Sequence record: PZ445487.1
Source of the DNA: a phage
Reading direction: 5' to 3' (one strand)
DNA length: 64,000 nt
The notes under the pieces are model-generated. The model was not told where the DNA came from. It saw only the letters and a program-made list of their open reading frames with translations, and ran no database searches. The translations under genes were made by a program, and so were the position numbers. Below, piece after piece: positions 8,798 through 59,280 of the stretch (within the stretch, counting starts at the first letter, position 1; the number at the start of each line of letters is the position of its first letter).

Positions 8798-8812
8798 TTT
8801 AATTCAGAAGCG

Positions 8813-8856
8813 TTCAATAGATAAAGGGGCTGCTATAATAGCAGCTCCTTTTGTTT
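8813..8856 (+). promoter_or_regulatory. composite terminator/promoter element (TTCAAT N15 TATAAT with -10 in hairpin loop, then T-run)
   Basis: TTCAATAGATAAAGGGGCTGCTATAATAGCAGCTCCTTTTGTTT; 9-bp stem, loop TATAATA; approximate coordinates. Confidence 0.5.
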
Positions 8857-8869
8857 ATTGGAGCATGTC

Positions 8870-9532
8870 ATGTCTTATTCGCTCAAAGGGCTGTTGAAGC
8901 GCCCTGTGCATTTGTTTGTCAAACCACCTGCTGTAGAAAGGGAATATTCGGCACGAGGAGAGTTGTATTACATTAAAGGCTCCAATGGTAGTGGTAAGTC
9001 TACTGTGCCTTCTTATTTGGCGGAGAATGATCCTCAGGCGTATGTCGTAACCCACAACAGTAAGATCATGCTCACGGTTTGTCCATCTTATAATATTGTC
9101 TGTGTCGGTAAATATGACAAGTCTAAGTCCAAAGGGGTTGATTCTCTGAAGGATACTGAGCAGATGTTGTTCGCGTTGTCTATTGCTGACCAACCAGAAT
9201 ACCTGAAATATGATGTGATTTTCGAAGGCATCATTCCGTCTACATTATTGAGTTCTTGGATTCCCCGCCTGACACGCCCACCACGTGAATTGGTCGTCCT
9301 CTTTATGGATACCCCTCTTGAAACCTGTATTGCCCGTGTTAAATCGCGTAACGGTGGCGCAGACTTCAATGAAAGTCTGGTGGTCGAGAAGTGGGAGAGA
9401 GTTCATGATCACCGTCAACGGCATAAAGGCTTGTTCCCTACCGTTCCCGCAGGTATGATGAAGTCCGATGGCCTGACTGTAGAGCAGGCTGTTTTTGCGT
9501 TTCTCAATCGTGATTTTGGGAGTATTTATTGA
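8870..9532 (+). CDS. P-loop NTPase/kinase-like protein
   Basis: Walker A GSNGSGKST; start at ATG with GGAG RBS (aa5 of track ORF, whose first codon is TTG). Confidence 0.5.
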   Translation: MSYSLKGLLKRPVHLFVKPPAVEREYSARGELYYIKGSNGSGKSTVPSYLAENDPQAYVVTHNSKIMLTVCPSYNIVCVGKYDKSKSKGVDSLKDTEQMLFALSIADQPEYLKYDVIFEGIIPSTLLSSWIPRLTRPPRELVVLFMDTPLETCIARVKSRNGGADFNESLVVEKWERVHDHRQRHKGLFPTVPAGMMKSDGLTVEQAVFAFLNRDFGSIY

Positions 9533-10578
9533 TGGAAATCAAAGCAATTAACAACAACGACATGCTGAAACAGGCTGTCTTGGCTATCCGTGAGCACGGG
9601 ATTGAATCTGACCCTGGTAACGCGGAGATCAACACAGACGGCACTCGTTTTATTGATGGCGTGACGATCACCGTCTCTGACATCCGCGACCGTTGGCTGT
9701 CTGTTGAAGGACGCAACTCATCGGCTATTGCTGCCATCGGCGAGACCTTCTGGGTTCTGTCTGGGCGCGATGATGTGCGCTTCTTGTCCCGTGTCCTCCC
9801 TCGCGCCGCCAACTTCTCTGATAATGGCCATACATGGCGAGCCGCTTATGGTCCGCGTCTGTACGCCCATGGCCAGCTGGATAGCGTTATCAACCGCCTA
9901 CGCAAGAACCCAAATACTCGTCAAGCGTACCTCACCATCTATGATCCGGCTCTAGATTCGGATGCTGGTCTGGCGAAGTTCAGCGAGAGCGGCGAAGCAA
10001 AGACTAAGGACATGGTGTGTAACCTGGCTCTGTTGTTCGCCATCGTTGAAGGTCGTCTGAACCTGACGGTCATCAACCGCTCACAGGATGTTCTGTGGGG
10101 GATGAGTTCAATCAACTTCATTGAGTTCTCTATTCTTCAGGAAGTGATTGCTCAGGTGTTAGATGTTGATGTCGGTCAGTACAAGCTATTCTCTAACAAT
10201 CTTCATTACTACAACAATGAAGTCAGCCAGAAGCAGCTTGGCAAGATCACCAAAGACACAAAAGTCACTGGTGGTTTCATCAACTCCATGATCTACTTCA
10301 CGAACGTGACCAACCAGAACCATATCCGCAATCTGTTCACTGGTGTGCTTCATCACTGTGATATCGGCAGCCCGTGGGAAACTGTTGTCGCTCACCTGAA
10401 GGAGTACGGCGCGGATCGCGGCCTGATCGTGCAGATGGCGTACTGCCTGTACTGCAAACTGAACGACAAGCTCATCAACATGAACCTGATTCAGGATCAT
10501 GGTTTGAACATCGCGCTCGCCCATTCTCCGATTGACCGCAAGATCGTTGATCCCAAGTTCTTGGAAGGTGCAGTATGA
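9532..10578 (+). CDS. thymidylate synthase superfamily protein (candidate pyrimidine hydroxymethylase)
   Basis: MVCNLALLFAIVEGRLNLTVINRSQDVLWGMSSINFIEFSILQEVIA aligns to TS catalytic-Cys..QRS.D..LG.PFNI region; 348 aa, longer than TS or T4 gp42. Confidence 0.6.
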   Translation: MEIKAINNNDMLKQAVLAIREHGIESDPGNAEINTDGTRFIDGVTITVSDIRDRWLSVEGRNSSAIAAIGETFWVLSGRDDVRFLSRVLPRAANFSDNGHTWRAAYGPRLYAHGQLDSVINRLRKNPNTRQAYLTIYDPALDSDAGLAKFSESGEAKTKDMVCNLALLFAIVEGRLNLTVINRSQDVLWGMSSINFIEFSILQEVIAQVLDVDVGQYKLFSNNLHYYNNEVSQKQLGKITKDTKVTGGFINSMIYFTNVTNQNHIRNLFTGVLHHCDIGSPWETVVAHLKEYGADRGLIVQMAYCLYCKLNDKLINMNLIQDHGLNIALAHSPIDRKIVDPKFLEGAV

Positions 10579-11144
10579 TGTATCCGAACCTTGAATTCTT
10601 TACGGGGCGCAAGCGCTCCGGCAAGGACTTCTGTTTGGAGTCCCTCATCAGCTATCACCATTTACAGGGTGATATGGACATCCAGCGCTTATCTTTCTCA
10701 GACGAGTTGCGTCGGGTGGCTCATTACATCTATCCTTGGTTGCCAGAGGAAGTAGAGGACGATATCAAGGACTTGCCATATGTTCACCCAGATAACCCCA
10801 AGGGATTAACTCCAAGGCAGATCTGGCTTCATCTCGGCAGCGATACGGGGCTTCGTTATGTCCAACCGGATCTGTTTTTGTCTTTCTTTAAGCGTTACCA
10901 ACTCCCATTAGTTGAACAGAATCCTAACATTCATTATATTGTGAGTGATCTACGGACGCCTCAAGAATATGAATGGGCGCTGAGCACTAAATGTCCCATC
11001 ACCCGCATTTCAAAGGCAGATCGCGGCGGTATCATAGAGGACGACATAGAGGCTTTCATTGATGAGATGAAAGTTGATTATGAATTTGTTAACCCATTTG
11101 AAGGTTGGCAACCATTCGTCAAATTTTATAGGGAACGGAAATGA
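10575..11144 (+). CDS. deoxynucleoside monophosphate kinase (T4 gp1-like)
   Basis: FFTGRKRSGKDF matches T4 gp1 FLSGVKRSGKDT P-loop; size 189 aa. Confidence 0.65.
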   Translation: MMYPNLEFFTGRKRSGKDFCLESLISYHHLQGDMDIQRLSFSDELRRVAHYIYPWLPEEVEDDIKDLPYVHPDNPKGLTPRQIWLHLGSDTGLRYVQPDLFLSFFKRYQLPLVEQNPNIHYIVSDLRTPQEYEWALSTKCPITRISKADRGGIIEDDIEAFIDEMKVDYEFVNPFEGWQPFVKFYRERK

Positions 11145-11686
11145 TCACAGCAGAGCATATCAAAAGTCTGCTCGAACTTCAAAAGGCCACCAACGTGGCC
11201 TATTTTGGGGAAGAGTGGCGTAAACATTGGACTCATGTGGCGGTGGTGAACTCCATCTATCGTGAGTGGGCAGAGTTCCTTGACGAAGTTTCGACCAGTT
11301 GGAAAATCTACGGCAATGACCAGCAATGGCACCAAGTCAATGCGGTTTACGAATTGGTCGATGTCGTCCACTTCATGCTGTGTGCCGTTATACAAAAAGA
11401 AGCGGAGCCGCATGATATGTACGACATGACGGGTTATGTGTCTGATCAACCTATTCAGAGAAAGCCAGATTTCCTCCATGTGACAAATCTGTTTACGCAT
11501 TTTATGTCTCATCCAGAGCGCAATGTGCTGGCTGCTTTCCTTGCGTATGCTTGTGGTTATTTGGGACTGGATGCCGAAACCTACATGCTGGCGCACAAGC
11601 GCAAGAACGATCGCAATCGTCTACGTGCTGCTGGCGGTGCGAACTATGACAAGTCTGCCGAAACCCCTCTGACTCTGGAGTTCTAA
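11141..11686 (+). CDS. all-alpha NTP pyrophosphatase (MazG/dimeric dUTPase-dCTPase-like)
   Basis: EW..F..E and ELVDVVHF motifs typical of MazG-like/gp56-like pyrophosphatases; position after dNMP kinase. Confidence 0.45.
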   Translation: MITAEHIKSLLELQKATNVAYFGEEWRKHWTHVAVVNSIYREWAEFLDEVSTSWKIYGNDQQWHQVNAVYELVDVVHFMLCAVIQKEAEPHDMYDMTGYVSDQPIQRKPDFLHVTNLFTHFMSHPERNVLAAFLAYACGYLGLDAETYMLAHKRKNDRNRLRAAGGANYDKSAETPLTLEF

Positions 11687-12216
11687 TGTTTACAGTCGTC
11701 GTATCATATTATGCGGAACATGCCCCGTACATGGCAGAGAACTTCGCTGAGTTTATTAAACCAGGCGGTCATGTCGTTATTGCGACCAATTTCAAGAAAG
11801 GGCCAAATGGTGCGGCTACTGTAACACAACATATTACAACACCAGAGCCGGAAACACTTTTTAAACGCATTGAAGATTTTGCTTTTGGCGGGGAAGAAAT
11901 TCCAGAGTCATTGCAGCATATCTATTTTGAAGATGCGATATATTATGTTCATGCTATTCCAAAGGATGTTACAACTGAACAAATGATGTATATCCTGAAT
12001 ATCGCATTGAATGTTTCTTGTGTCAACAGGGCACAGCACAATCGTCTGCGTAATATGTATTTAACAGAACGCGGGGGTTCCGAAATTAACGATGAAAAAC
12101 TCCCGTCAATAATGGCGATTCACGAAGCAATCAATATATTGTCCAAGAAAGTCTTGGGCACCGATTTATTAATTACGATCAACAAGCAAGAGGAAACGAA
12201 ATGGCCGATTCATTGA
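11686..12216 (+). CDS. hypothetical protein
   Basis: 176-aa ORF with start overlapping upstream stop. Confidence 0.45.
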   Translation: MFTVVVSYYAEHAPYMAENFAEFIKPGGHVVIATNFKKGPNGAATVTQHITTPEPETLFKRIEDFAFGGEEIPESLQHIYFEDAIYYVHAIPKDVTTEQMMYILNIALNVSCVNRAQHNRLRNMYLTERGGSEINDEKLPSIMAIHEAINILSKKVLGTDLLITINKQEETKWPIH

Positions 12217-27537: not shown

Positions 27538-28059
27538 TTAATTCCTTACTTTGTCTGGGTTGGATAAGATTTGTTCGTATCCGACTTCGCCTTGATCGTC
27601 GAAAACGTGTTTAAGGATTGCCATATCTCCCACCATCCGGTAAACTTCAATTCCGGAGTTCATCAATCTTTTGATTCCATCCATGATACGATATGGCTCT
27701 TGATAATATACTTTATCGATCTTGCCATTGTCGATGATTTTCTGAGTGCAATCAGGGCATGGGCTATGTGTCACAAACATAACCAACCCTGTGAAATCAT
27801 CTGCATTTTCGGGGATACGCATTAGAGCATTTTCCTCCGCATGAATGACACACGGGTTTGTAACAATTTGCCCGTGTTGTTCCATCTCACAAACATTCGG
27901 CATGCCAGGAGGCGTTCCGTTCCATCCGATAGCCACAGGCTGATCAGTTTCAGGGTTTACGATAACACAACCGACTTGCAGACGCCGAGCATAACTGGTT
28001 ACACCATATGCTGCAGCTGATCGCATATGGGCGAACATCATACGTGGTTTGATAGCCAT
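27538..28059 (-). CDS. cd: deoxycytidylate (dCMP) deaminase
   Basis: zinc-binding HAEENAL and PCPDC motifs; 173 aa. Confidence 0.8.
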   Translation of the reverse strand: MAIKPRMMFAHMRSAAAYGVTSYARRLQVGCVIVNPETDQPVAIGWNGTPPGMPNVCEMEQHGQIVTNPCVIHAEENALMRIPENADDFTGLVMFVTHSPCPDCTQKIIDNGKIDKVYYQEPYRIMDGIKRLMNSGIEVYRMVGDMAILKHVFDDQGEVGYEQILSNPDKVRN

Positions 28060-30007: not shown

Positions 30008-30670
30008 CTATGATAACTCATGGCGATGTCGAACACAGGCAGGGCAATCACAATTCTTTTTCAAAATTGGCAATTCACACCATGTCATTAAGTCATGTAT
30101 TGGGGACATGTGATGATAGAACCAAGATTTCTTGAGACTAATCAATGGATATAAAATTTCAATAGATCTTTCCCCGTCTCTGGTCATCATGTTGTATCCT
30201 TCAATAACTTTATTAAAGGCGGGTATCCAGTGTATTGCGTCATCGCCGTTAACATATGCCAAGATATACGTGGGTGGCAAGCCACTGCCTTTAAATTGCG
30301 TGTTTAATAACCATATCGGGGCTTGTGCTAAACAAGCGCGAAAACCACCGTTCGGGACGTTGATGCTACTGATAGGTTCTTGATGATGTGTCCAACGATA
30401 CATGAGAAGTGGGGCATTTTTATTAATCCAGTTGTATATTTTATTCCTCGCCCAATTTTCGCGTTTAGATTTAAATTTATTATTTTCGAGGTGGCAATAC
30501 ACAGTATGAACTGAATATCCTTTCGATAGCAACCAAATCAACATGTATGTGCTATCCACCCCACCAGACCAGAACAACGTCACTTCTTGATTATTCTGCG
30601 GCAATGGAGCATCCCCTTGAAGAACACGGTATACAAAATCACAATCAGATATTGAGACAACAATTTCCAT
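30008..30670 (-). CDS. QueC-like PP-loop ATPase
   Basis: PP-loop LFWSGGVDS (SGGxDS); C-terminal CDCPACVRH cysteine cluster as in the QueC zinc site; 220 aa. Confidence 0.55.
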   Translation of the reverse strand: MEIVVSISDCDFVYRVLQGDAPLPQNNQEVTLFWSGGVDSTYMLIWLLSKGYSVHTVYCHLENNKFKSKRENWARNKIYNWINKNAPLLMYRWTHHQEPISSINVPNGGFRACLAQAPIWLLNTQFKGSGLPPTYILAYVNGDDAIHWIPAFNKVIEGYNMMTRDGERSIEILYPLISLKKSWFYHHMSPIHDLMTWCELPILKKNCDCPACVRHRHELS

Positions 30671-37828: not shown

Positions 37829-38407
37829 TTATAGACCAAATTTACCACGCCACTTTTCAACTTTGTGTTCTATGGCATGTTCTACTTTAACGATCGTGTT
37901 GATATGGTTTTGATTATACCCACACGCCAATTTGGCAGTATTGCGTATCAGATTTGAAACCAGGTCCACCATATTATCTTCTGAACGTTGAGGTTGGTTC
38001 AGTAAACGAGTGATGCGGCCTTTGTAATGATTAACCATCGCAAGATATTTGTCTATAGTTTCAACACCACTGCAGAACCAATAATCCTCCAACGTATGTT
38101 GGCTGAGATCAGTTGTGTGATTGGCCGTAGCCAAAGCAAACACCATGGAGTCAAAGATTTCTTCTTTGGTCATAGACCCATGTTGTTGAACTTGTTGATA
38201 ATCCACAACATATAATAGATCCAGAGCCGAGATGATAACGTCCGCCACTTCACCGTTCAGGGGTTCGGATGCAGCGATTCCATAAAGCACATCTGATAGT
38301 TCACAAGACTCTTCCACGAGTTTGCAATATACAAACACAGGAGAACGATTAGGATCGCGCTGGCTGAGTTCATATGATGTGTTGAAGATAATTTTTAGAA
38401 AATTCAT
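37829..38407 (-). CDS. MazG-like nucleotide pyrophosphohydrolase
   Basis: KLVEESCELSDVL and GEVADVIISALDLL match MazG EExxE / E-x-x-D helices. Confidence 0.45.
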   Translation of the reverse strand: MNFLKIIFNTSYELSQRDPNRSPVFVYCKLVEESCELSDVLYGIAASEPLNGEVADVIISALDLLYVVDYQQVQQHGSMTKEEIFDSMVFALATANHTTDLSQHTLEDYWFCSGVETIDKYLAMVNHYKGRITRLLNQPQRSEDNMVDLVSNLIRNTAKLACGYNQNHINTIVKVEHAIEHKVEKWRGKFGL

Positions 38408-46301: not shown

Positions 46302-46408
46302 AGTATAGAATTCCTGTTCAGATCAAAGAAGAACACATTATTGGGTAAGGTTATGATACTGGCGGGTGGTTCAATAGAAAAGCCTCCAATCGGAGGCTTT
46401 AATCAGGA

Positions 46409-46762
46409 TTAACTTCCCTGAACGTTTACAACGGTGGCGTTGAAATTGAATATCGGGTGGGTGGCACCTGGCTCTAACGTCTCTTCCAGATAACCCACAA
46501 TATTGCGTGTCACAGATTTCGGCTCTGCGCGGGAAGGCTTCGTTGCGCCGAGGTCAATAATGCTCGAAGTGACTTGTTCAACCTGAGTGTGATTGACAAC
46601 AAAATGATAACGACTACCGAAGGCCGCAACTTCAACTTCTGTTATTTCTAAACCACTCAATTCAGAGCTGTTCAACTGCTTCACATTCAATTGAGAGCGG
46701 AGGTGCTCTACAATATTGCTGTAAACATATTGTGGTGTGATCAGCTGTTCAATAGAACTCAT
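46409..46762 (-). CDS. hypothetical protein
   Basis: 117-aa ORF. Confidence 0.4.
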   Translation of the reverse strand: MSSIEQLITPQYVYSNIVEHLRSQLNVKQLNSSELSGLEITEVEVAAFGSRYHFVVNHTQVEQVTSSIIDLGATKPSRAEPKSVTRNIVGYLEETLEPGATHPIFNFNATVVNVQGS

Positions 46763-46931
46763 GACATATCCTCATTTCTTTGGGGGTTTATTGTTACTTA
46801 AACGGATCACCTCTGCTCGAAGGAAGAGGATTTCATCGGCCATCATTTTACCTTCTTGAAACATAACATGACATCGTGATGATCTGGGTTCACCTTCCGA
46901 TAATGCGTAAAGGCGATATTCGGGGATGACA

Positions 46932-47138
46932 TCATTTACGGCGTTTCTTTTTGTTCTTTCCATGGGTCTTGGCCTTTTTAGGACGACTGACGGAAGGACG
47001 AGCATGCCCAGGTTCCCCAGGGGTACACCCTTGTGCATAACGATGATCATCCCAGAGACGACCATTATGCGTCATATCTTCAGCCATGGCGGACAAAGCA
47101 AGGGTTGCTACAGCCGCAGCAGATAATGGTTTAGACAT
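46932..47138 (-). CDS. small secreted-like protein with polybasic C-terminus
   Basis: AAAGGAGAAACAA RBS before ATG (MSKPLSAAAVATLALSAMA signal-like N-terminus; tail KKAKTHGKNKKKRRK). Confidence 0.45.
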   Translation of the reverse strand: MSKPLSAAAVATLALSAMAEDMTHNGRLWDDHRYAQGCTPGEPGHARPSVSRPKKAKTHGKNKKKRRK

Positions 47139-47577
47139 TTGTTTCTCCTTTTGCTGCATACGACAGAGCTTTTACGATCATAACAGCCAAACCGATAGGA
47201 TCGTATGCATTGTCGAATTCTTGTTCTATGTTCTGACGAATTTCATCAGAAGATTGTACTTCAGAGCAGTTCTTACTCTGTCTGCGTTGCTCTTGCTCGA
47301 CTAGATCTTTGAACAGAAGGTCTTTGAAAGAATACTCATCGAAGTTTTCAAGATACCGTTGGATGCTTGGTTGTTTTACATCCATCGTTTGACGCAAATT
47401 GCTAATAGTTGAACTTGCCTGTTCGCGGTGTTTGTTCATAACAGCAAAGTTAACGGGCTTGCCCCAAGCATTCATCACTGGATTAGAGCATACTTGGCCA
47501 AAGAGATCTTGGAAGGCATCATCCATGTGGATCAACGCAGTGGCCAATTCCTCATAAGTCGGTTTTTGAGTAGTCAT
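47131..47577 (-). CDS. hypothetical protein
   Basis: 148-aa ORF. Confidence 0.4.
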   Translation of the reverse strand: MTTQKPTYEELATALIHMDDAFQDLFGQVCSNPVMNAWGKPVNFAVMNKHREQASSTISNLRQTMDVKQPSIQRYLENFDEYSFKDLLFKDLVEQEQRRQSKNCSEVQSSDEIRQNIEQEFDNAYDPIGLAVMIVKALSYAAKGETNV

Positions 47578-47951
47578 TTTCGTTTACTCCGATTTTTATA
47601 TTTCTTAGCCTGACGTTTATGTTGGGCGGCTCCATATAGGCGCGGCGGCTTTTGATAACGTTGTGACGCAATTATGTCTCTGTCATCGGCTTCACAATAC
47701 GAAATATCTGCCTTCCGTAACTGAGCCACCGCTTGAGATACCAAGGTTTTGCGTTCACTTTCTACCAGATCATCACAAATTATCATGCGTTCACCTGGTT
47801 CACAACAACGTTTAGGAATATCGTCTACACTGATACATTCTACTTCAACACCTTTCAACTTTTCTTGAAGGATAATGGCCATAGTCCGAGCGCCGATTCC
47901 TCCTCCAATAATCGCTATCTTTCTTGTCTTGTCTGTCATGTTCTTGCCCAT
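47574..47951 (-). CDS. hypothetical protein with Rossmann-like GGGIG motif
   Basis: KIAIIGGGIGA dinucleotide-binding-like motif; track start 47969 is TTG inside a hairpin, ATG at 47951 or 47939 more likely. Confidence 0.4.
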   Translation of the reverse strand: MGKNMTDKTRKIAIIGGGIGARTMAIILQEKLKGVEVECISVDDIPKRCCEPGERMIICDDLVESERKTLVSQAVAQLRKADISYCEADDRDIIASQRYQKPPRLYGAAQHKRQAKKYKNRSKRK

Positions 47952-47956
47952 GAAAA

Positions 47957-47994
47957 GGGGATAGAGCAATAATACCCTATCCCCATTTATTGAA
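47957..47994 (-). promoter_or_regulatory. composite terminator/promoter element (TTCAAT N14 TATTAT in hairpin loop, T-run)
   Basis: minus orientation TTCTTCAATAAATGGGGATAGGGTATTATTGCTCTATCCCCTTTTC; approximate. Confidence 0.5.
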
Positions 47995-48000
47995 GAACTA

Positions 48001-48492
48001 TTAGTCTTCCGAACCTACAACCCCACCACGCAGATCCTGTGCTGGCTTACCATCAGGTGCCATGACATAGATGGTATTGATAGTCTCAAACCAAGACAAT
48101 AAATCAACTCCTTCGGTGTATGGCGTTACCGGAACAGAAGTTTTGATTTCTTTCTGTTCATCCTTCAAATCCGGATGACTTCCCGATAGGGTTAACCAAG
48201 CGAATCTTCCATTGGGATAAATAATGCCTTCTTTGAACATTACAATCTTTTTGCGAGGATTATTGGCTTCACCCAGGCACACCACCAGATGATGGATCAT
48301 TTCGGGGCGCGTCAACAACGTGTCATCTTTGATAATGCCCTGCTTGACAGCAGAGATTACCACTTCATCCAGCAACGCCTGTTGCTGTTCCAGCGTCAGA
48401 GATTCGGTTAGTTTCACGCTCATAAGATCAGCCTTTGAAGTTAATCGGAGTCTGGACACCAGAGTCAAATGCGGCCTGGGTGCGGGTGTCAC
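48001..48492 (-). CDS. hypothetical protein
   Basis: 163-aa ORF. Confidence 0.4.
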   Translation of the reverse strand: MTPAPRPHLTLVSRLRLTSKADLMSVKLTESLTLEQQQALLDEVVISAVKQGIIKDDTLLTRPEMIHHLVVCLGEANNPRKKIVMFKEGIIYPNGRFAWLTLSGSHPDLKDEQKEIKTSVPVTPYTEGVDLLSWFETINTIYVMAPDGKPAQDLRGGVVGSED

Positions 48493-48997
48493 TCACCACC
48501 TGACATGTCTTGTCAAGATCGATACGCGGATATCCAAAGATTCCTGCTATCAGAGAACCAGGGAACTGGCCAAGTTTAGTTTCATAGATCGCACATGCGT
48601 CCAATTTTTTAGTTTGGCTAATGCGGAATTCATCCCGACCTGAGCTGATAACAACCTGAATCTCTTTGTACAAAGATGAATCAAACTGAATATTCTGTTC
48701 CTGAATCCATTGCATTACTGCTTTAGAACCGTCTGCGCCATAACGGCCTTGGAAAGTATCTTTGATCACTTCCTTCAAACCGTTTTTGTACATGTCAGGA
48801 ATCTGCGCCGTCTCCTGAACTTTGAGCGTGTAGTTGCTCAGGTGGTTTTCAGAATCTTTGTTGAACTTTTTGACCTGTTGTTCAATGCGGTTGAAGTCAT
48901 TGAAATAGCTAACCACACTGCCAATCCCAATTACAGCAAATGCTAGAATCGCCAACCCAACAATCCAACCAATTGAAATACCTTTACGTTGTGACAT
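48428..48997 (-). CDS. LemA-family membrane protein
   Basis: N-terminal TM helix; C-terminal LGQFPGSLIAGIFGYP matches LemA VxKFPGxLIA motif. Confidence 0.5.
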   Translation of the reverse strand: MSQRKGISIGWIVGLAILAFAVIGIGSVVSYFNDFNRIEQQVKKFNKDSENHLSNYTLKVQETAQIPDMYKNGLKEVIKDTFQGRYGADGSKAVMQWIQEQNIQFDSSLYKEIQVVISSGRDEFRISQTKKLDACAIYETKLGQFPGSLIAGIFGYPRIDLDKTCQVVSDTRTQAAFDSGVQTPINFKG

Positions 48998-49012
48998 CTT
49001 TACTTCCTCTTG

Positions 49013-50122
49013 TTAAAACAAACGTTTATAAGTTCGACCATTGTACTGCATGCGGCCTAATATGAAAACTGCGGTAAAAGGGATACATCCAAACAGCACG
49101 ACGATAATCACTTCCCAAGTTTTAAGATCTCGCCATTTCAGATATTCCATTTCCTTCATCTCAACTCGGTTGTATCCCTTACTGATATTGACCGCAACTT
49201 CTTGGAACACGGATATGCCCATTGGTTTCCCAGTCAATGAAAGTCCGTTACGAGAATGGAGTTCCATGTTGTTCATGCCGTCGGCAAATGACGTAGACTT
49301 ACCCCAATTAATTTTCATATCCTTTGAAATATCGGTGACTACAATAACATCGTTCTTTTTACCGCCAGACCATGCATATAGAAGTCCCTGAAAATATTCA
49401 ACAGGCTGGCCAGAAGTCACAACCCAAACGATATTAACCTGACGTGAAGCACCTAATGTTTTCAGAGTATTGTTCAGATAATCATTCCAGTAATCAACAG
49501 GAATGTCCATCCCTGACATATTCAGAACACGAGTTACTCGGTAATAATCATACACCCTCGGATATGAAGGGATATGCTCTTTGAACTTCTCGGCGAATTT
49601 CTGGTCAGATTTAGAGAATAATGAATCTTTGTTGCCCAGCACATAATTCATATATGAATGTTCACGTGCCGCAGGTTCCCCGATTTTAACTTGTGCCCAA
49701 CGCGGAGGCTCTGTAGTACCCTGACGATCAATACGGTCAATGCTCAGATCACCGACGGTTGTTAATACGTCCCAATCAACGTCATAAGAGTGCTCATAGC
49801 ATGTGCTGCAATGACGCGTTTGTGTACAAGATCGGTTATTTCCTGAACCTGTACAAGATGTTGTGTAATAACACATACATTCATAAGAATGTTCACAACC
49901 CACCTTATTCCGTTGCTTATCAGTTACATATCCATTCAGGATTTCCACGTCCCCAGAACTACCAAGGGAGAAAGCAGCATATAATCCCGACTGGATAAGG
50001 CAAGACAATACGATAACAATGGCCGTGGCGATCAAAGTCTCCTTTGGCTCATGAGTCTTGCGGTGATATATCACAAACAAGATGGCCAAAATTACAGGAA
50101 CCACAAACAGAAGGTAAATCAT
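49013..50122 (-). CDS. Cys-rich membrane protein (TM helices at both ends)
   Basis: 369 aa; N- and C-terminal hydrophobic helices; cysteine-rich segment CEHSYECMCYYTTSCTGSGNNRSCTQTRHCSTC. Confidence 0.5.
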   Translation of the reverse strand: MIYLLFVVPVILAILFVIYHRKTHEPKETLIATAIVIVLSCLIQSGLYAAFSLGSSGDVEILNGYVTDKQRNKVGCEHSYECMCYYTTSCTGSGNNRSCTQTRHCSTCYEHSYDVDWDVLTTVGDLSIDRIDRQGTTEPPRWAQVKIGEPAAREHSYMNYVLGNKDSLFSKSDQKFAEKFKEHIPSYPRVYDYYRVTRVLNMSGMDIPVDYWNDYLNNTLKTLGASRQVNIVWVVTSGQPVEYFQGLLYAWSGGKKNDVIVVTDISKDMKINWGKSTSFADGMNNMELHSRNGLSLTGKPMGISVFQEVAVNISKGYNRVEMKEMEYLKWRDLKTWEVIIVVLFGCIPFTAVFILGRMQYNGRTYKRLF

Positions 50123-50505
50123 AACACACCATCCACGAGTTGTTCCTTCGTCATACCAAGAAGTTGATTTTTATGCTCAGATTTAGCCCCATTTTTCAAC
50201 AACAGATCCCAACGTTCTTCATGATACTGTGGAGTCATTGCATCGTCAAAAGAAACATGGTGGAGATGCATAATTGTTGCAACGGTATGAAGAACGATTG
50301 CTGTTTCTCTTTTTAAAGCACGTGTATCCGTGATATGGTCTTCATATTCGATTCCCATCAAATCGAGTTCTTTTCGGATATATGCTATAGACAAATCACC
50401 TTCAGAATGCAATTTAACAATAGTCGCTTTCTTAGGATGTAACACGCCGTCTGTTTCTTTCATGAACAGATCGTACAGGTACTGTTTGTATTCGGACTGT
50501 GTCAT
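50119..50505 (-). CDS. hypothetical protein
   Basis: 128-aa ORF. Confidence 0.4.
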   Translation of the reverse strand: MTQSEYKQYLYDLFMKETDGVLHPKKATIVKLHSEGDLSIAYIRKELDLMGIEYEDHITDTRALKRETAIVLHTVATIMHLHHVSFDDAMTPQYHEERWDLLLKNGAKSEHKNQLLGMTKEQLVDGVL

Positions 50506-50714
50506 TTAGATTCTCCCATGACGATAACAGGAGCGCCATTACGGAAACAACTATATTCTGCAGGAAGACCTTCGCGAACCTTCTGGGCGAACGCTTCAGA
50601 AACAACCAAACGACCAACCAGAGGTTCTTTTTGTTTTGGGGTGGACTCAAAGTAATCACCAAAAGTCGCTTCCATATCGAGCACAGACATGTCTTCAATT
50701 CGTTGCATTGCCAT
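50502..50714 (-). CDS. hypothetical protein
   Basis: 70-aa ORF. Confidence 0.3.
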   Translation of the reverse strand: MAMQRIEDMSVLDMEATFGDYFESTPKQKEPLVGRLVVSEAFAQKVREGLPAEYSCFRNGAPVIVMGESK

Positions 50715-50725
50715 GATATAGGACC

Positions 50726-50917
50726 TCAGTATAATTTCGTATAAACTTGTTTAACGCCAATATCGGCAGGAGCTGTGCTCTGCTGCATATTATAGAATGC
50801 CAAATCTGCTTGTTCTTTGTTTTCAAAATCAACTACAACTGTGTGTACTGATATTGCTTCACCCTGTCCATAAGCATAACAACGGCTGGTGACCAATATT
50901 TTGTATTGAGGTGTCAT
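50726..50917 (-). CDS. hypothetical protein
   Basis: 63-aa ORF with AAGGA RBS. Confidence 0.4.
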   Translation of the reverse strand: MTPQYKILVTSRCYAYGQGEAISVHTVVVDFENKEQADLAFYNMQQSTAPADIGVKQVYTKLY

Positions 50918-50941
50918 AAAATCAATCCTTGCAAAAAGAAA

Positions 50942-50980
50942 GGGGAACGGGCTAATAATAACCCATTCCCCTTTATTGAA
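50942..50980 (-). promoter_or_regulatory. composite terminator/promoter element (TTCAAT N14 TATTAT in hairpin loop, T-run)
   Basis: minus orientation TTCTTCAATAAAGGGGAATGGGTTATTATTAGCCCGTTCCCCTTTCTTT; approximate. Confidence 0.5.
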
Positions 50981-51000
50981 GAACGCAATCGCAATCAGAT

Positions 51001-51167
51001 TACTTTTTCTTCAGCTCGTCCAGTTTGGCTTCGATTTGTTCCAGGATGTCTTTACCCTTCTGAACAATCACTTCACCGTCTTGCGCGTGTTTGCGAAAGA
51101 CCAGAGCGCCAGCGATGAAGCCGACAACCACACCAGGAAGCGCATAAACCAACAGATCTTGTAACAT
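51001..51167 (-). CDS. small membrane protein (55 aa, below ORF-track cutoff)
   Basis: MLQDLLVYALPGVVVGFIAGALVFRKHAQDGEVIVQKGKDILEQIEAKLDELKKK; GAGGA RBS; coordinates +/-2. Confidence 0.35.
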
Positions 51168-51202
51168 GATAATATCCTCACTTTATAGCGAGGATATTTA
51201 TA

Positions 51203-52444
51203 TCAGCGTTTCAAGAGTGTCATGAGGTTCACACTTTTAGAAGGATACACAGTACCATTTCGGCTCATGGTGTCCAATTTACCAACTGACAAACAAACCT
51301 CAGACGGTTCCCAACGTGTACCCTGCTGTAAATGCCAGATATGTAGAGGAACACCCGTCTCAAAGAACACGGGCATCTTCCACTTCTGGACGCCTGGAAC
51401 GTGCCCTGCAGGAGCCTTCTCACATAACAGGGTATCTGGTAGCCAGAGTGAACGGGCTTCCCAGAGAGGTGCACAGGAGTATTCAGGCCAAATACGTTCC
51501 ATATAATCGATCTCGTCCCATGTACGCTCGGCGTCCCACCCGATGTAACGGGTATTCTTCAGTCGGAAGAATTTCTTCAACCAACAAGCACCGGAGGTCT
51601 CAAAGTTCAGACGATTGATAAACGTGATGTGGCCAAACTCTTCAACGCATTCCTGAAACGCTTTCTCAAGGTCGGTTTCGAGTATATCACATTCTTCGTC
51701 TGTAATAGGACAACCGTTAATCTTTTTCTTCCCGTGCTTGGTCACCCAATCATCACGGTTGGATAAGAATGCCGCGCCGTTACGATTGGATTCGCTACCA
51801 TCACGGTCACGCAACATGAAACCAGGGACGTCTATATCCCATATGTTACCGAAGACCATGTTCAGGGCTTCCAGGAAGTTCCATGCGCTCAGGCGACCGA
51901 AGTATTTCCATGACATCGCCGTATTCCACAGTTCGGTGAATTGGTCTTCCTTGGTAGTGCATTCCAACATCCAACGAAAAGAATCCATTTGGGTTTTACC
52001 ACCCAACCAATCGATATAGGACTGAACGCACGGAATCATCTTCGACTTACGATAACGACAATCTGTATCGAAGCGCATACGATCAAAGTTCAGGTTATAC
52101 CAATCAGAAAATCGCTGAAACTCTTTCGGAGATTGTGGGGGTACAGGAAATTCACTGTAAATTGTCCATGGTCCAATCCCATTATAGCAACAACCCCACA
52201 AAAAGGCCATCCAAATCTTGCGCTCGATCTTCTCGAGCTGTGTGATGCCTTCTGTAACCTCGATGGCATAATCCATCAGACGGACTTGCTGGTTATGCTC
52301 TTCAGTGTAGGATAGCGCCTCCACCCATGCCTTGAGCAGGTACATGCGATTTTCTGGCTTACGATAATCTACTGCCAGATCAATCGGGTATTTCCATTTT
52401 TCAGGGGCTTTATATCCCTGCGGCATTTTAGAAATGTGTATCAT
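51203..52444 (-). CDS. hypothetical protein (candidate DNA base-modification enzyme by context)
   Basis: 413-aa Trp/Cys-rich protein with no recognised family, directly upstream of P-loop kinase and nucleotidase genes. Confidence 0.5.
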   Translation of the reverse strand: MIHISKMPQGYKAPEKWKYPIDLAVDYRKPENRMYLLKAWVEALSYTEEHNQQVRLMDYAIEVTEGITQLEKIERKIWMAFLWGCCYNGIGPWTIYSEFPVPPQSPKEFQRFSDWYNLNFDRMRFDTDCRYRKSKMIPCVQSYIDWLGGKTQMDSFRWMLECTTKEDQFTELWNTAMSWKYFGRLSAWNFLEALNMVFGNIWDIDVPGFMLRDRDGSESNRNGAAFLSNRDDWVTKHGKKKINGCPITDEECDILETDLEKAFQECVEEFGHITFINRLNFETSGACWLKKFFRLKNTRYIGWDAERTWDEIDYMERIWPEYSCAPLWEARSLWLPDTLLCEKAPAGHVPGVQKWKMPVFFETGVPLHIWHLQQGTRWEPSEVCLSVGKLDTMSRNGTVYPSKSVNLMTLLKR

Positions 52445-52626
52445 CCGATTTTACTCCCGAGTTCAACACGGAACGCCAGATAGAAGAAAGTGGCGATCGA
52501 TACTGGACAGATCACCAAGAATGGGCGCTGTTGCACCCCTTCTGTGACCATGACGCCGACCAGCGAAACCGTAAAGATAACGAACATCAGCATCATGAAG
52601 ATAAAATCAACATGCTTGATTTTCAT
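52441..52626 (-). CDS. small membrane protein
   Basis: 61-aa hydrophobic ORF. Confidence 0.3.
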   Translation of the reverse strand: MKIKHVDFIFMMLMFVIFTVSLVGVMVTEGVQQRPFLVICPVSIATFFYLAFRVELGSKIG

Positions 52627-52993
52627 CTTTCACTTCCTCTACAGGAGAAACAACTTCAGGCTCAGCTTCGGGAGCCAGCTGAATTTCTTCGGGGCTTACT
52701 ACGGGCTGTCCCAGAGACCAGATAGGCAGGAAACGACGATCATTCGTCACCAACCAAATTTGCTTGGCGGTTTTCGTCTTTTCGGAAATAAAATGCTGGG
52801 CATTGACCTGGGTACGAGCCAAACCCACCTGACGCCAAGAACCGAAATCCTTAGAAGAAGGATTGGTATTCAGTTGAAATTGTGGGACGATTTTATTCTG
52901 TTCCGGATAATAACGGACAGCGTTAATCATCTTCGCATCACCACGGTAATCAATAGCAACAGCGACAACGTTGCGTGGAATGAGGATTTTCAT
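52607..52993 (-). CDS. hypothetical protein
   Basis: 128-aa ORF. Confidence 0.4.
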   Translation of the reverse strand: MKILIPRNVVAVAIDYRGDAKMINAVRYYPEQNKIVPQFQLNTNPSSKDFGSWRQVGLARTQVNAQHFISEKTKTAKQIWLVTNDRRFLPIWSLGQPVVSPEEIQLAPEAEPEVVSPVEEVKDENQAC

Positions 52994-52994
52994 T

Positions 52995-53198
52995 TTAATT
53001 CCTTTTGAAACTCTGAATTATGTTATAGACGAAAGGCGTTAATAAGATAGCACCCCCCAAATAATATAACGCGTAAACGTTCAATATTTCGGTTGAATCC
53101 AACTCAACGATGCCCAAATATTTCATGACACCGACAAGCACAGCTGTGATACACATCACCAATCCGACGAACACAAAATATTTAGACATCTGTTTCAT
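52995..53198 (-). CDS. small membrane protein (2 TM)
   Basis: 67-aa hydrophobic ORF. Confidence 0.35.
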   Translation of the reverse strand: MKQMSKYFVFVGLVMCITAVLVGVMKYLGIVELDSTEILNVYALYYLGGAILLTPFVYNIIQSFKRN

Positions 53199-53200
53199 TT

Positions 53201-54106: not shown

Positions 54107-54447
54107 TATGCATCTTCCTCAATACGCCAGCTCACACCGCCCAACCAGGGAGACCAGAAAACAGCAACCTGTGGACGTTCGTTTTCTACAAACTTCACTT
54201 TATACTGGTCTTCAAAGTTATAGAAAATTTCATCGTCATCTGGTGCCATACCGTTTTCTATCAGAACACGCTTTAACTCCAGCGCCGCACCAACGGAAGT
54301 GGGTGTGGTTTGTTTACGAATGAAGTTGTTCACATGGATAATAACGCCATCCATATCGCTATCACCGGAACGCTTGTCTGGGGTTTCCCCAAACTTAGAT
54401 TGTTCTTGCACGATGTCCTCCTCAACGGACGTATTGATAATGGCCAA
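54106..54447 (-). CDS. hypothetical protein
   Basis: 113-aa ORF. Confidence 0.4.
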   Translation of the reverse strand: MAIINTSVEEDIVQEQSKFGETPDKRSGDSDMDGVIIHVNNFIRKQTTPTSVGAALELKRVLIENGMAPDDDEIFYNFEDQYKVKFVENERPQVAVFWSPWLGGVSWRIEEDA

Positions 54448-55541: not shown

Positions 55542-55601
55542 AACAATACCTGTTGTCAAAGGGATAACAGGGGGAATTATATCCCCCTTTGGTTTATTGA
55601 A

Positions 55602-58598: not shown

Positions 58599-58677
58599 TG
58601 TTTGTCTCCGGTTAACCGTGCCGTTAGCACGTCCCCGTAATTTAGCCGAGGAACGTTCAATGACCAAGGAGTTTATT

Positions 58678-59250: not shown

Positions 59251-59253
59251 GTT

Positions 59254-59280
59254 AGAGGGGAGGAAACTCCCCTTTCTTTT
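59254..59280 (+). terminator. putative rho-independent terminator
   Basis: GAGGGGAGGAAACTCCCCTTTCTTTT; approximate. Confidence 0.5.

What the first reader, a model, noticed from the sequence alone, without database searches (positions are those of the whole stretch)
8870..11686. Nucleotide-level pyrimidine modification module: P-loop kinase, thymidylate-synthase-family enzyme with C-terminal extension, dNMP kinase, NTP pyrophosphatase
Four co-oriented, translationally coupled genes (overlapping stop/start codons). The 348-aa protein has the TS/dCMP-hydroxymethylase catalytic core (MVCN...QRSQDV...G) but is about 100 aa longer than either. It is preceded by a P-loop kinase and followed by a gp1-like dNMP kinase and an all-alpha pyrophosphatase. 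This is the gene set needed to make a non-canonical pyrimidine dNTP (for example 5-hydroxymethyl-dUMP to the triphosphate) while hydrolysing the canonical one. The extension and the extra kinase suggest chemistry beyond the classical T4 hm-dC route.
Basis: partly seen in the sequence, partly recalled or inferred. Interest (0 to 1): 0.7.

Follow-up and report, generated by a model that had tools for sequence, protein, structure and literature searches.

The report
Known phage thymidine-hypermodification gene cluster (CBA120)
These four genes are the already published front end of the pathway by which coliphage CBA120 and its ViI-like relatives replace about 40% of the thymidines in their DNA with the hypermodified base 5-NeOmdU, so the finding is real but not new.

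Summary
The window is 100% identical to Escherichia phage CBA120 (Kuttervirus, Ackermannviridae). The four overlapping genes exist exactly as described. They are orf074, orf073, orf072 and orf070.

- **orf074 (P-loop kinase)** is not a nucleotide kinase. It matches Pfam HMUDK_HMUD1 at full length and is 94% identical to ViI gp67, which phosphorylates 5-hydroxymethyl-dU inside DNA in vitro.
- **orf073 (348 aa, TS family)** is a dUMP hydroxymethylase. It has the catalytic Cys and the uracil/deoxyribose signature Arg130/Ser184/Asn195, and it scores far below every ThyA equivalog cut-off. Its C-terminal "extension" is a helical domain like the one in the solved hydroxymethylase MilA. All 44 aligned homologs have a tail of similar length, so it does not signal new chemistry.
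- **orf072** is a remote T4 gp1-type dNMP kinase.
- **orf070** is a dimeric-dUTPase-family pyrophosphatase. Together, orf072 and orf070 are the split form of the fused gp18 of phage SH-Ab 15599, a demonstrated dTTPase/dUTPase.

The downstream enzymes also lie in the window: a second DNA kinase, the serine:DNA transferase and the PLP decarboxylase. Published LC-MS of CBA120 virion DNA shows 5-NeOmdU replacing about 40% of T.

Verdict: already known.

The parts
8823..8851 (+). G+C-rich 13-bp stem-loop followed by a T-run (terminator-like). It sits in the 72-bp gap between orf076 and the kinase gene and marks the upstream edge of the coupled gene chain.
   Evidence: Consensus scan; sequence. Function as a terminator is not tested.
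8870..9532 (+). orf074: 5-hydroxymethyl-dU DNA kinase (5-HMUDK, clade HMUD1). It phosphorylates the hydroxymethyl group of 5-hmdU in polymerised DNA. RefSeq mislabels it 'terminase small subunit'.
   Evidence: PF18748 E=5e-113, profile positions 1-196 of 196. 94% identical to ViI gp67 (YP_004327432). ViI gp67 activity on 5-hmdU DNA is shown in PMC8989533.
9532..10578 (+). orf073: dUMP hydroxymethylase (thymidylate-synthase superfamily). TS-like core at about residues 1-236, plus a MilA-like helical C-terminal domain at about residues 260-340.
   Evidence: PF00303 59.3 bits, residues 64-234 only. All NCBIfam ThyA equivalogs far below cut-off. AF2 model pLDDT 93.9. Foldseek best hit MilA, 343 columns, TMq 0.73. 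Cys163, Glu71, His225 and Tyr227 invariant; Arg130/Ser184/Asn195 signature.
10575..11144 (+). orf072: dNMP kinase, a remote homolog of T4 gp1. Inferred to convert 5-hmdUMP to 5-hmdUDP.
   Evidence: phrog_139 E=8e-49. hhalign of family alignment A2 against T4 gp1: probability 97.9%, E=3e-13. 32% identity to the N-terminal half of SH-Ab 15599 gp18. Substrate not tested.
11141..11686 (+). orf070: all-alpha dimeric-dUTPase-family NTP pyrophosphatase. Inferred dUTPase/dTTPase that spares 5-hmdUTP.
   Evidence: PF08761 44.7 bits against cut-off 22.9. phrog_173. Weak PDB sequence hits to dimeric dUTPases. 30% identity (E=5e-9) to the C-terminal domain of SH-Ab 15599 gp18, shown in vitro to hydrolyse dTTP and dUTP but not 5hmdUTP. 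No 3H-thymidine incorporation in CBA120 infection.
11686..12216 (+). orf069: ACT_phage-domain protein, translationally coupled (TAATG) to the pyrophosphatase gene. Role unknown; listed as a neighbour, not as a proven pathway part.
   Evidence: PF24021 E=4e-86. Found in 270 phage records, nearly all named for hosts of Ackermannviridae. In nearly all of the 25 records listed, the annotated features at or next to the match are the dUTPase-family gene and UvsX.
27538..28059 (-). dCMP deaminase (orf037). Supplies dUMP for the hydroxymethylase.
   Evidence: PF00383 E=5e-17. RefSeq annotation. Role inferred from the published pathway.
51203..52444 (-). orf248: amino acid:DNA transferase (aGPT-Pplase clade 2). 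Ortholog of ViI gp247, the serine:DNA transferase that makes O-serinyl-thymidine from phosphorylated 5-hmdU in DNA.
   Evidence: PF18724 E=2e-57. 86% identical to ViI gp247. Activity in PMC8989533.
53201..54106 (-). orf243: second 5-hmdU DNA kinase (clade HMUD2). Ortholog of ViI gp243. Mislabelled 'guanylate kinase'.
   Evidence: PF18747 E=2e-149. 86% identical to ViI gp243. Only 22% identical to orf074. Activity in PMC8989533.
54422..55264 (-). NT5C-like 5'-nucleotidase ORF. The RefSeq gene orf240 uses the internal start and spans window 54422-55204. Candidate dTMPase of the pool-remodelling set; inferred only.
   Evidence: PF06941 32.7 bits against cut-off 24.8. Role suggested by analogy with the dTMPase of hmU phages described in PMC8989533.
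62278..63471 (-). orf228: PLP-dependent decarboxylase. Ortholog of ViI gp226. Converts O-serinyl-thymidine in DNA to 5-NeOmdU.
   Evidence: 94% identical to ViI gp226. Weak PF00291 match, 31.4 bits, below the cut-off of 35. Activity in PMC8989533.

Best explanation
The region is the core of the thymidine-hypermodification pathway of Escherichia phage CBA120 (Kuttervirus). It works in two stages.

**Stage 1, before replication (nucleotide pool).**
- The phage dCMP deaminase makes dUMP.
- orf073 is a thymidylate-synthase-family enzyme that traps the exocyclic methylene intermediate with water instead of reducing it. It converts dUMP plus methylene-tetrahydrofolate to 5-hydroxymethyl-dUMP.
- orf072 is a gp1-type dNMP kinase that makes the diphosphate. 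A host NDP kinase makes 5-hmdUTP.
- orf070 is a dimeric-dUTPase-family pyrophosphatase. It hydrolyses dUTP and probably dTTP back to monophosphates, so the phage polymerase incorporates 5-hmdU instead of T.

**Stage 2, after replication (on the DNA polymer).**
- orf074 is a P-loop nucleobase kinase (5-HMUDK). With its paralog orf243 it phosphorylates the hydroxymethyl group of 5-hmdU in DNA.
- The aGPT-Pplase2/ADDT enzyme orf248 replaces the phosphate with the side-chain oxygen of serine.
- The PLP enzyme orf228 decarboxylates the serine adduct to give 5-(2-aminoethoxy)methyl-dU (5-NeOmdU) at about 40% of T positions.
- The remaining 5-hmdU ends up as thymidine by a step that is still unknown.

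**What is shown and what is inferred.**
- Shown for this phage: the modified nucleoside in virion DNA, and the lack of thymidine incorporation.
- Shown for 86-94% identical ViI orthologs: both kinases, the transferase and the decarboxylase.
- Inferred: the hydroxymethylase activity of orf073, the substrate of orf072, and the dTTPase activity of orf070.
For: - **Identity of the window.** It is 100% identical to CBA120 over all 64 kb.
- **orf074.** PF18748 at 375.7 bits and full length. 94% identical to ViI gp67, with identical synteny in ViI. ViI gp67 and gp243 phosphorylate 5-hmdU in DNA in vitro (PMC8989533).
- **orf073, sequence.** TS-fold core with the catalytic Cys163 and with Glu71, His225 and Tyr227 invariant in 44 homologs. 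Asn195 aligns with the ThyA Asn177-equivalent, whereas MilA has Asp. Arg130 and Ser184 sit at the positions that are Lys and Ala in the ribose-preferring MilA. ThyA equivalog scores are 19-57 bits against cut-offs of 108-427.
- **orf073, structure.** The AF2 model has pLDDT 93.9. Its best PDB match is the hydroxymethylase MilA over 343 columns with TMq 0.73, against about 0.53 for thymidylate synthases.
- **orf072.** hhalign against T4 gp1 gives 97.9% probability.
- **orf070.** PF08761 match.
- **Fusion evidence.** orf072 and orf070 match the two halves of gp18 of the Ackermannviridae phage SH-Ab 15599 in the same gene order. gp18 hydrolyses dTTP and dUTP but not 5hmdUTP in vitro (PMC13458397).
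- **Downstream enzymes in the window.** They are 86-94% identical to ViI gp243, gp247 and gp226.
- **Literature on CBA120 itself.** No 3H-thymidine is incorporated, and its TS clusters with dUMP hydroxymethylases (PMC3184105). A 301-Da nucleoside replaces about 40% of T (PMC5889632). The paper says 'CBA120 natively synthesizes 5-NeOmdU' (PMC8989533).
Against: - I found no direct enzymology for CBA120 or ViI orf073, orf072 or orf070 in the papers I read. Their activities rest on homology, residue signatures and the phenotype of the infected cell.
- Two of the four residues that the SH-Ab 15599 paper's docking model uses to explain base recognition and 5hmdUTP exclusion (Y35, W56) are not conserved at the aligned positions of orf070. 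Q13 and N17 are conserved (Q14 and N18 here; my reading of the alignment). The dTTPase specificity is therefore inferred, not demonstrated.
- Sequence alone cannot strictly separate a dUMP hydroxymethylase from a divergent thymidylate synthase.
- How about 60% of positions end up as plain T is unexplained (PMC5889632).
Confidence: 0.93

Rival explanations
1. One reading: all four proteins act on free nucleotides. The P-loop protein is an extra nucleoside or nucleotide kinase, and the TS-family enzyme's C-terminal extension performs or enables a further chemical step on the nucleotide, giving a novel modified dNTP.
For: Tight translational coupling of the kinase gene to the hydroxymethylase gene. 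Weak generic P-loop kinase matches: AAA_33 and phrog_761 thymidylate kinase at E=2.5e-5.
Against: The specific full-length match is to the 5-hmdU DNA kinase family (375.7 bits). The 94%-identical ViI gp67 transfers phosphate to 5-hmdU in DNA. Reconstitution of 5-NeOmdU used 5-hmdU DNA as substrate. The C-terminal domain matches the MilA extra helical domain, which lies away from the active site and is thought to aid folding. All 44 homologs have a tail of comparable length.
Confidence: 0.03
2. An ordinary housekeeping dTTP-synthesis module: ThyA, thymidylate kinase and dUTPase, making canonical thymidine for phage replication.
For: RefSeq and many GenBank records call orf073 'thymidylate synthase' and orf070 'dUTPase'. 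PF00303 is above its gathering score. About 60% of T positions in virion DNA are plain thymidine.
Against: Every NCBIfam ThyA equivalog model is far below its cut-off, for example 56.5 against 327 bits. The Pfam match ends at profile position 218 of 266, and the ThyA C-terminal segment is replaced by a helical domain. CBA120-infected cells incorporate no 3H-thymidine. The genome encodes two 5-hmdU DNA kinases that need 5-hmdU in DNA as substrate. Virion DNA contains 5-NeOmdU.
Confidence: 0.02
3. A T4-type cytosine route: dCMP hydroxymethylase, gp1 kinase and dCTPase (gp56-like), making hm-dC DNA.
For: The gene set is formally analogous to T4 gp42, gp1 and gp56. The closest solved structure is a cytidylate hydroxymethylase, MilA. 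Some GenBank records label the pyrophosphatase 'dCTP pyrophosphatase'.
Against: The base-specifying residue is Asn195 (Asn in 43 of 44 family members), not the Asp of T4 dCMP hydroxymethylase and MilA. T4 dCMP hydroxymethylase is not among PDB sequence hits at E<0.01. Kutter et al. report that CBA120 does not substitute hmdC. LC-MS shows canonical dC plus a modified T. The phage encodes a dCMP deaminase that feeds dUMP.
Confidence: 0.01
4. orf074 is the small terminase subunit, as RefSeq and PHROG 800 name it, and only happens to sit next to nucleotide-metabolism genes.
For: phrog_800 'terminase small subunit' E=2e-68. RefSeq product name in CBA120, ViI and many relatives.
Against: The PHROG match covers only positions 4-220 of a 511-position profile. 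The label is an annotation, not a test. Pfam assigns the whole protein to HMUDK_HMUD1. It has a Walker A P-loop. The ViI ortholog has demonstrated DNA nucleobase kinase activity. The gene sits in an early replication/nucleotide operon, not next to the large terminase.
Confidence: 0.01

Closest known systems
Salmonella phage ViI (Vi01) 5-NeOmdU pathway: gp67 (5-HMUDK), thyA/Vi01_060c (dUMP hydroxymethylase), dnk, dUTPase, gp243, gp247, gp226 (Lee et al. 2018, 2021)
   Same: Same gene order and same overlaps. Protein identities are 94% (kinase), 77% (hydroxymethylase), 91% (dNMP kinase), 86% (pyrophosphatase), 86% (gp243), 86% (gp247) and 94% (gp226). The same modified nucleoside was measured in CBA120 DNA.
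   Different: Only allelic divergence. The hydroxymethylase and the pyrophosphatase diverge more than their neighbours. The C-terminal domain of the hydroxymethylase is visibly more divergent in the alignment.
Acinetobacter phage SH-Ab 15599 dapT pathway (dUMP HMase, gp18 dTTPase/dUTPase, 5-HMUDK, Pplase2; NAR 2026, PMC13458397)
   Same: An Ackermannviridae relative with the syntenic block DNA kinase, dUMP HMase, gp18, UvsX, helicase. The hydroxymethylase core is 35% identical. gp18 covers both orf072 and orf070.
   Different: In 15599 the kinase-like and pyrophosphatase domains are fused into one 391-aa protein. Its DNA kinase belongs to another Pfam family (HMUDK_hel, PF18723). The final base is diaminopropanyl-thymine rather than 5-NeOmdU.
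MilA, CMP 5-hydroxymethylase of mildiomycin biosynthesis (PDB 5B6D, 5JNH)
   Same: Closest solved structure by both sequence (E=5e-17) and fold (TMq 0.73 over 343 columns). TS-like core plus an extra all-helical C-terminal domain. Hydroxymethylation rather than methylation.
   Different: MilA acts on CMP and has Lys133/Ala176/Asp186. orf073 has Arg130/Ser184/Asn195, the deoxyribose plus uracil signature. Identity is only about 20%. MilA works in antibiotic biosynthesis, not DNA precursor supply.
T4 hm-dC route (gp42 dCMP hydroxymethylase, gp1 dNMP kinase, gp56 dCTPase/dUTPase)
   Same: Same logic: a TS-family hydroxymethylase, a dedicated dNMP kinase, and a pyrophosphatase that removes the canonical dNTP. 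orf072 is a remote homolog of gp1.
   Different: The base is uracil, not cytosine (Asn195). The later decoration is not glucosylation. It is phosphorylation of the base in DNA, followed by amino-acid transfer and decarboxylation. Replacement is partial (about 40%).
Classical thymidylate synthase ThyA (E. coli, PDB 2TSC and others)
   Same: Same fold for the core, same catalytic Cys, same dUMP-binding residues (Arg, Ser, Asn, His, Tyr).
   Different: Scores are far below the ThyA equivalog cut-offs. The C-terminal segment that closes over the folate in ThyA is replaced by a helical domain. The second phosphate-binding Arg is Gln131 here, and Gln in 27 of 44 family members.

Membership tests
5-hmdU DNA kinase, clade 1 (Pfam PF18748 HMUDK_HMUD1; 5-HMUDK of Lee et al.) | Full-length match to the family profile above the gathering score | tested here: met
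   375.7 bits against cut-off 27; protein residues 14-209 cover profile positions 1-196 of 196.
5-hmdU DNA kinase, clade 1 (Pfam PF18748 HMUDK_HMUD1; 5-HMUDK of Lee et al.) | P-loop (Walker A) NTP-binding motif | tested here: met
   GSNGSGKST at residues 37-45.
5-hmdU DNA kinase, clade 1 (Pfam PF18748 HMUDK_HMUD1; 5-HMUDK of Lee et al.) | Orthology to a biochemically characterised member | tested here: met
   94% identity over 219 aa to ViI gp67 (YP_004327432) at the syntenic position. gp67 activity is reported in PMC8989533.
5-hmdU DNA kinase, clade 1 (Pfam PF18748 HMUDK_HMUD1; 5-HMUDK of Lee et al.) | Genomic co-occurrence with a dUMP hydroxymethylase and an aGPT-Pplase2/ADDT transferase | tested here: met
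   The hydroxymethylase gene is adjacent with a 1-nt overlap. The ADDT gene is at 51203-52444 (PF18724).
5-hmdU DNA kinase, clade 1 (Pfam PF18748 HMUDK_HMUD1; 5-HMUDK of Lee et al.) | ATP-dependent phosphorylation of 5-hmdU in DNA by this protein | not testable with these tools
   Needs an enzyme assay. It has been shown only for the ViI ortholog.
dUMP hydroxymethylase (TS superfamily, SPO1 gp29 / phiW-14 type) | TS fold with catalytic Cys and the conserved Glu, His and Tyr | tested here: met
   PF00303 59.3 bits. Cys163, Glu71, His225 and Tyr227 invariant in 44 homologs. Confident model with TS and MilA structural hits.
dUMP hydroxymethylase (TS superfamily, SPO1 gp29 / phiW-14 type) | Uracil-specifying Asn (not Asp) and deoxyribose-type Arg/Ser | tested here: met
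   Asn195 aligns with the TS Asn. Arg130 and Ser184 align with MilA Lys133 and Ala176. The rule is taken from PMC5175136. 38 of 44 homologs are Arg/Ser/Asn.
dUMP hydroxymethylase (TS superfamily, SPO1 gp29 / phiW-14 type) | Lacks the ThyA C-terminal closing segment needed for hydride transfer | tested here: met
   The Pfam match stops at profile position 218 of 266. Residues 260-340 are helices that superpose on MilA rather than ThyA.
dUMP hydroxymethylase (TS superfamily, SPO1 gp29 / phiW-14 type) | Product is 5-hmdUMP and tetrahydrofolate | not testable with these tools
   Indirect support only: no thymidine incorporation and a 5-hmdU-derived base in virion DNA.
Classical thymidylate synthase ThyA | Reaches the NCBIfam equivalog cut-off | tested here: not met
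   Best score is 56.5 bits against a cut-off of 327. All seven ThyA models are sub-threshold.
T4 gp42-type dCMP hydroxymethylase | Asp at the base-specifying position (T4 Asp179) | tested here: not met
   Asn195. There is no PDB sequence hit to T4 dCMP hydroxymethylase at E<0.01.
T4 gp1-type dNMP kinase | Detectable homology to T4 gp1 | tested here: met
   hhalign of A2 against T4 gp1: probability 97.9%, E=3e-13 over 102 columns. phrog_139 E=8e-49. However, there is no Pfam DNMK hit, and no T4-like phage appears in the organism summary or listed rows of the tblastn search at E<=1e-3. The relationship is remote.
T4 gp1-type dNMP kinase | Phosphorylates the modified dNMP (here 5-hmdUMP) | not testable with these tools
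   Needs an enzyme assay.
Dimeric all-alpha dUTPase family (Pfam PF08761 dUTPase_2) | Match above the gathering score over the whole domain | tested here: met
   44.7 bits against 22.9; residues 7-164 cover profile positions 2-159 of 162. Weak PDB hits to C. jejuni and trypanosomatid dUTPases.
Dimeric all-alpha dUTPase family (Pfam PF08761 dUTPase_2) | dTTP/dUTP hydrolysis with exclusion of 5-hmdUTP, as in SH-Ab 15599 gp18 | tested here: inconclusive
   Homologous to the gp18 C-terminal domain (30% identity, E=5e-9). Q and N of the proposed base-binding set are conserved; the Y35 and W56 equivalents are not at the aligned positions. Activity not testable here.

The most novel reading that the evidence does not exclude
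Two things in or next to this block have no assigned function. One is the helical C-terminal domain of the hydroxymethylase, which is conserved at sequence level only in Ackermannviridae. The other is the coupled ACT_phage protein orf069. They could belong to the unsolved part of the pathway, which is deciding which 5-hmdU residues become 5-NeOmdU and which revert to thymidine. One possible mechanism is that they tether the precursor enzymes and the HMUD1 kinase to the replisome. Another is that the two very different DNA kinases (HMUD1 at 8870 and HMUD2 at 53201) feed different fates. Nothing I ran tests this. It is only not excluded.
Probability: 0.07. Interest if true: 0.5.

Novelty: already known. 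Interest (0 to 1): 0.1.

Why it matters
The biology matters. A phage swaps T for 5-hmdU at the nucleotide level and then builds an aminoethoxy side chain on the DNA itself. In the cited in vitro tests, about 60% of commercial restriction enzymes fail to cut such DNA. The 5-HMUDK kinase is also used as a DNA-labelling and switching tool in other laboratories (papers listed).

All of this has been published for this exact phage and its close relative ViI (2011, 2018, 2021). The finding adds no new knowledge. Its practical value is as an annotation correction. RefSeq still calls the DNA kinase 'terminase small subunit', the hydroxymethylase 'thymidylate synthase', and the second kinase 'guanylate kinase'.

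Tried and rejected
1. **Ordinary ThyA.** Rejected on NCBIfam scores, the replaced C-terminus and published labelling data.
2. **dCMP hydroxymethylase.** Rejected on Asn195 and the literature.
3. **C-terminal extension as a separate catalytic domain.** There is no Pfam domain beyond residue 234. The full-length model superposes on MilA including its helical tail. BFVD hits with full-length alignment are simply other long phage 'thymidylate synthases'. I did not fold the tail alone.
4. **Direct PDB sequence hits for the DNA kinase and the dNMP kinase.** These gave nothing significant.
5. **Homologs of orf072.** A tblastn search of the phage collection showed no T4-like phage in its organism summary or listed rows. 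Profile-profile comparison was needed to link it to T4 gp1.
6. **A published explanation of how 5-hmdU becomes plain T.** None was found in the papers searched.
7. **Promoter and terminator scans.** These gave only consensus-level matches near background, apart from the 13-bp stem-loop at 8823-8851.

Full report
**What is there.** ORF listing and the junction sequences confirm four + strand genes at exactly the coordinates given:
- 8870-9532 (220 aa)
- 9532-10578 (348 aa)
- 10575-11144 (189 aa)
- 11141-11686 (181 aa)

Their stop and start codons overlap (TGATG, ATGA, ATGA). The coupled chain does not end there. It runs on through an ACT_phage-domain protein (11686-12216, TAATG), UvsX, a small ORF and the gp41-type helicase. 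A 13-bp G+C-rich stem-loop followed by a T-run at 8823-8851 precedes the first gene.

**Where the window comes from.** Megablast gives 100% identity to Escherichia phage CBA120 (JN593240 / NC_016570; Kuttervirus, Ackermannviridae). A local BLAST shows the whole window is the reverse complement of that record. Window 1-46301 equals record 46301-1, and window 46302-64000 equals record 157304-139607. The four genes are orf074, orf073, orf072 and orf070.

**The P-loop kinase.**
- It matches Pfam PF18748, '5-hmdU DNA kinase', at 375.7 bits over the entire profile.
- It is 94% identical to ViI gp67 (YP_004327432), which occupies the same position upstream of thyA, dnk and dUTPase in phage ViI.
- Lee et al. 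2021 (PMC8989533) showed that ViI gp67 and gp243 transfer the gamma-phosphate of ATP to 5-hydroxymethyl-dU within DNA.

This protein therefore acts on the polymer, not on nucleotides. The RefSeq and PHROG label 'terminase small subunit' is a propagated misannotation.

**The TS-family enzyme: sequence.**
- The Pfam TS profile matches only residues 64-234, ending at profile position 218 of 266.
- All seven NCBIfam thymidylate-synthase equivalog models score far below their cut-offs, the best being 56.5 against 327 bits.
- The best solved relative by sequence is MilA, a CMP 5-hydroxymethylase (E=5e-17).

**The TS-family enzyme: structure and specificity.**
- I collected homologs, aligned 44 of them and obtained a confident AlphaFold model (pLDDT 93.9). 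It has a TS-like core and helices between residues 262 and 338.
- Foldseek against the PDB puts MilA first, aligned over 343 columns with TMq 0.73. Thymidylate synthases align over about 240-275 columns with TMq about 0.53.
- The MilA paper describes an extra five-helix C-terminal domain located away from the active site, with insoluble truncations (PMC5175136).
- All 44 homologs have 91-162 residues after the conserved His-x-Tyr motif. The 'extension' is therefore a clade-wide architectural feature and not a sign of additional chemistry.
- The same paper gives residue rules. Asp marks cytosine substrates and Asn marks uracil substrates. Lys/Ala marks ribose and Arg/Ser marks deoxyribose.
- orf073 has Arg130, Ser184 and Asn195, which points to dUMP as substrate.
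- Cys163, Glu71, His225 and Tyr227 are invariant.

**The dNMP kinase and the pyrophosphatase.**
- orf072 matches PHROG 139 'dNMP kinase'.
- A small family alignment compared with T4 gp1 by hhalign gives 97.9% probability. 'gp1-like' holds, but only remotely. There is no Pfam DNMK hit, and no T4-like phage appears in the organism summary or listed rows of the tblastn search.
- orf070 is a member of the dimeric all-alpha dUTPase family (PF08761; weak PDB hits).
- In the Ackermannviridae phage SH-Ab 15599 the syntenic position holds a single 391-aa protein, gp18.
- The N-terminal half of gp18 is homologous to orf072 (32% identity, E=1e-19). Its C-terminal half is homologous to orf070 (30% identity, E=5e-9; Pfam).
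- gp18 was shown in vitro to hydrolyse dTTP and dUTP but not 5hmdUTP (PMC13458397).
- This fusion links the two CBA120 genes functionally and supports a dUTPase/dTTPase role for orf070.
- Two of the four residues highlighted by that paper's docking model are not conserved at the aligned positions, so the specificity remains inferred.

**The rest of the pathway is in the same window.**

| Window coordinates | Strand | Product | Evidence |
|---|---|---|---|
| 53201-54106 | - | Second DNA kinase (PF18747) | 86% to ViI gp243 |
| 51203-52444 | - | Amino acid:DNA transferase (PF18724) | 86% to ViI gp247 |
| 62278-63471 | - | PLP enzyme | 94% to ViI gp226 |
| 27538-28059 | - | dCMP deaminase | Pfam match |
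| 54422-55264 | - | NT5C-like nucleotidase | Pfam match |

Lee et al. 2021 showed that gp247 transfers serine to phosphorylated 5-hmdU in DNA, and that gp226 decarboxylates the adduct to 5-NeOmdU.

**Direct evidence for this phage in the literature.**
- Kutter et al. 2011 (PMC3184105) reported that CBA120-infected cells incorporate no 3H-thymidine.
- They reported that orf073 clusters with dUMP hydroxymethylases of SPO1, phiW-14 and YuA, and that a dNMP kinase lies next to it.
- They suggested that the dUTPase is probably also a dTTPase.
- Lee et al. 2018 (PMC5889632) list CBA120 among 5-HMUDK phages. They measured the same 301-Da nucleoside as in ViI, replacing about 40% of thymidines.
- Lee et al. 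[quoted passage not shown]
- A 2024 review states the same for the whole family.

**Verdict.** It is right about a non-canonical pyrimidine route through 5-hmdUMP, about removal of canonical dNTPs, and about chemistry beyond T4. It is wrong that the extra kinase acts on nucleotides, and wrong that the C-terminal extension points to new chemistry. The system is already known, for this exact phage.

**What remains open in the field.** How the other roughly 60% of 5-hmdU becomes thymidine is unexplained. So is why there are two very different DNA kinases (22% identity), and what the coupled ACT_phage protein does. Nothing in this region resolves those questions.

Noticed in passing
L004:11151-12326 (Acinetobacter phage SH-Ab 15599 gp18) compared with window 10575-11686: gp18 was published in 2026 as a dTTPase/dUTPase with a C-terminal dUTPase-like domain. 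That paper assigns 5hmdUMP phosphorylation to host kinases. The N-terminal half of gp18 (residues 4-171) is homologous to the CBA120 dNMP kinase orf072 (E=1e-19), and the orf072 family is itself related to T4 gp1. gp18 therefore looks like a dNMP kinase-pyrophosphatase fusion, and the phage may supply its own 5-hmdUMP kinase.
   Followed up: partly
window 8870-9532, 9532-10578 and 53201-54106: RefSeq product names are misleading. The 5-hmdU DNA kinase is called 'terminase small subunit' (also in PHROG 800 and many relatives). The dUMP hydroxymethylase is called 'thymidylate synthase'. The second DNA kinase is called 'guanylate kinase'.
   Followed up: yes
window 11141-11686: The pyrophosphatase gene is a mosaic spot. 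Many Kutterviruses are more than 99% identical to CBA120 in the megablast-aligned part of window 8800-11800 (91% of the query, in two pieces). Their orf070 protein is only about 68% identical. This suggests allele replacement at this one gene.
   Followed up: partly
window 11686-12216: The ACT_phage-domain protein (PF24021, unknown function) is translationally coupled to the pyrophosphatase gene (TAATG). It occurs in 270 phage records, nearly all named for hosts of Ackermannviridae. In nearly all of the 25 records listed, the annotated features at or next to the match are the dUTPase-family gene and UvsX. It is absent at the equivalent position in SH-Ab 15599.
   Followed up: partly
alignment A1 (homologs P0041, P0044, P0054, P0057, P0061, P0111): Five distant homologs of the hydroxymethylase carry Lys/Ala/Asn at the MilA specificity positions. 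At least two carry bacterial names in their source records (Paenarthrobacter, Rhizobium rhizogenes). This is a ribose-type sugar signature with a uracil-type base signature, so they may be UMP hydroxymethylases. One homolog (P0111) has Arg/Ser/Asp, the dCMP type.
   Followed up: no
window 8823-8851: A strong 13-bp stem-loop with a T-run lies immediately upstream of the kinase gene, in the only sizeable intergenic gap (72 bp) of this stretch. It is probably the terminator of the preceding unit or a regulatory hairpin.
   Followed up: no
window 30008-30670 (-) and 37829-38407 (-): A QueC-like/ThiI-like PP-loop ATPase (weak Pfam matches) and a protein RefSeq calls 'MazG-like pyrophosphatase' (no Pfam hit) also lie in the window. 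It is not established whether either takes part in nucleotide-pool remodelling.
   Followed up: no
L005 (Vibrio phage K414) 1203-6570: A distant Vibrio phage has the same gene order: DNA kinase ('terminase small subunit'), 382-aa TS homolog, dNMP kinase, pyrophosphatase, hypothetical protein, UvsX, small ORF, helicase. Protein identities are only about 36-39%. The block is therefore old and conserved across the wider Ackermannviridae-like group.
   Followed up: partly
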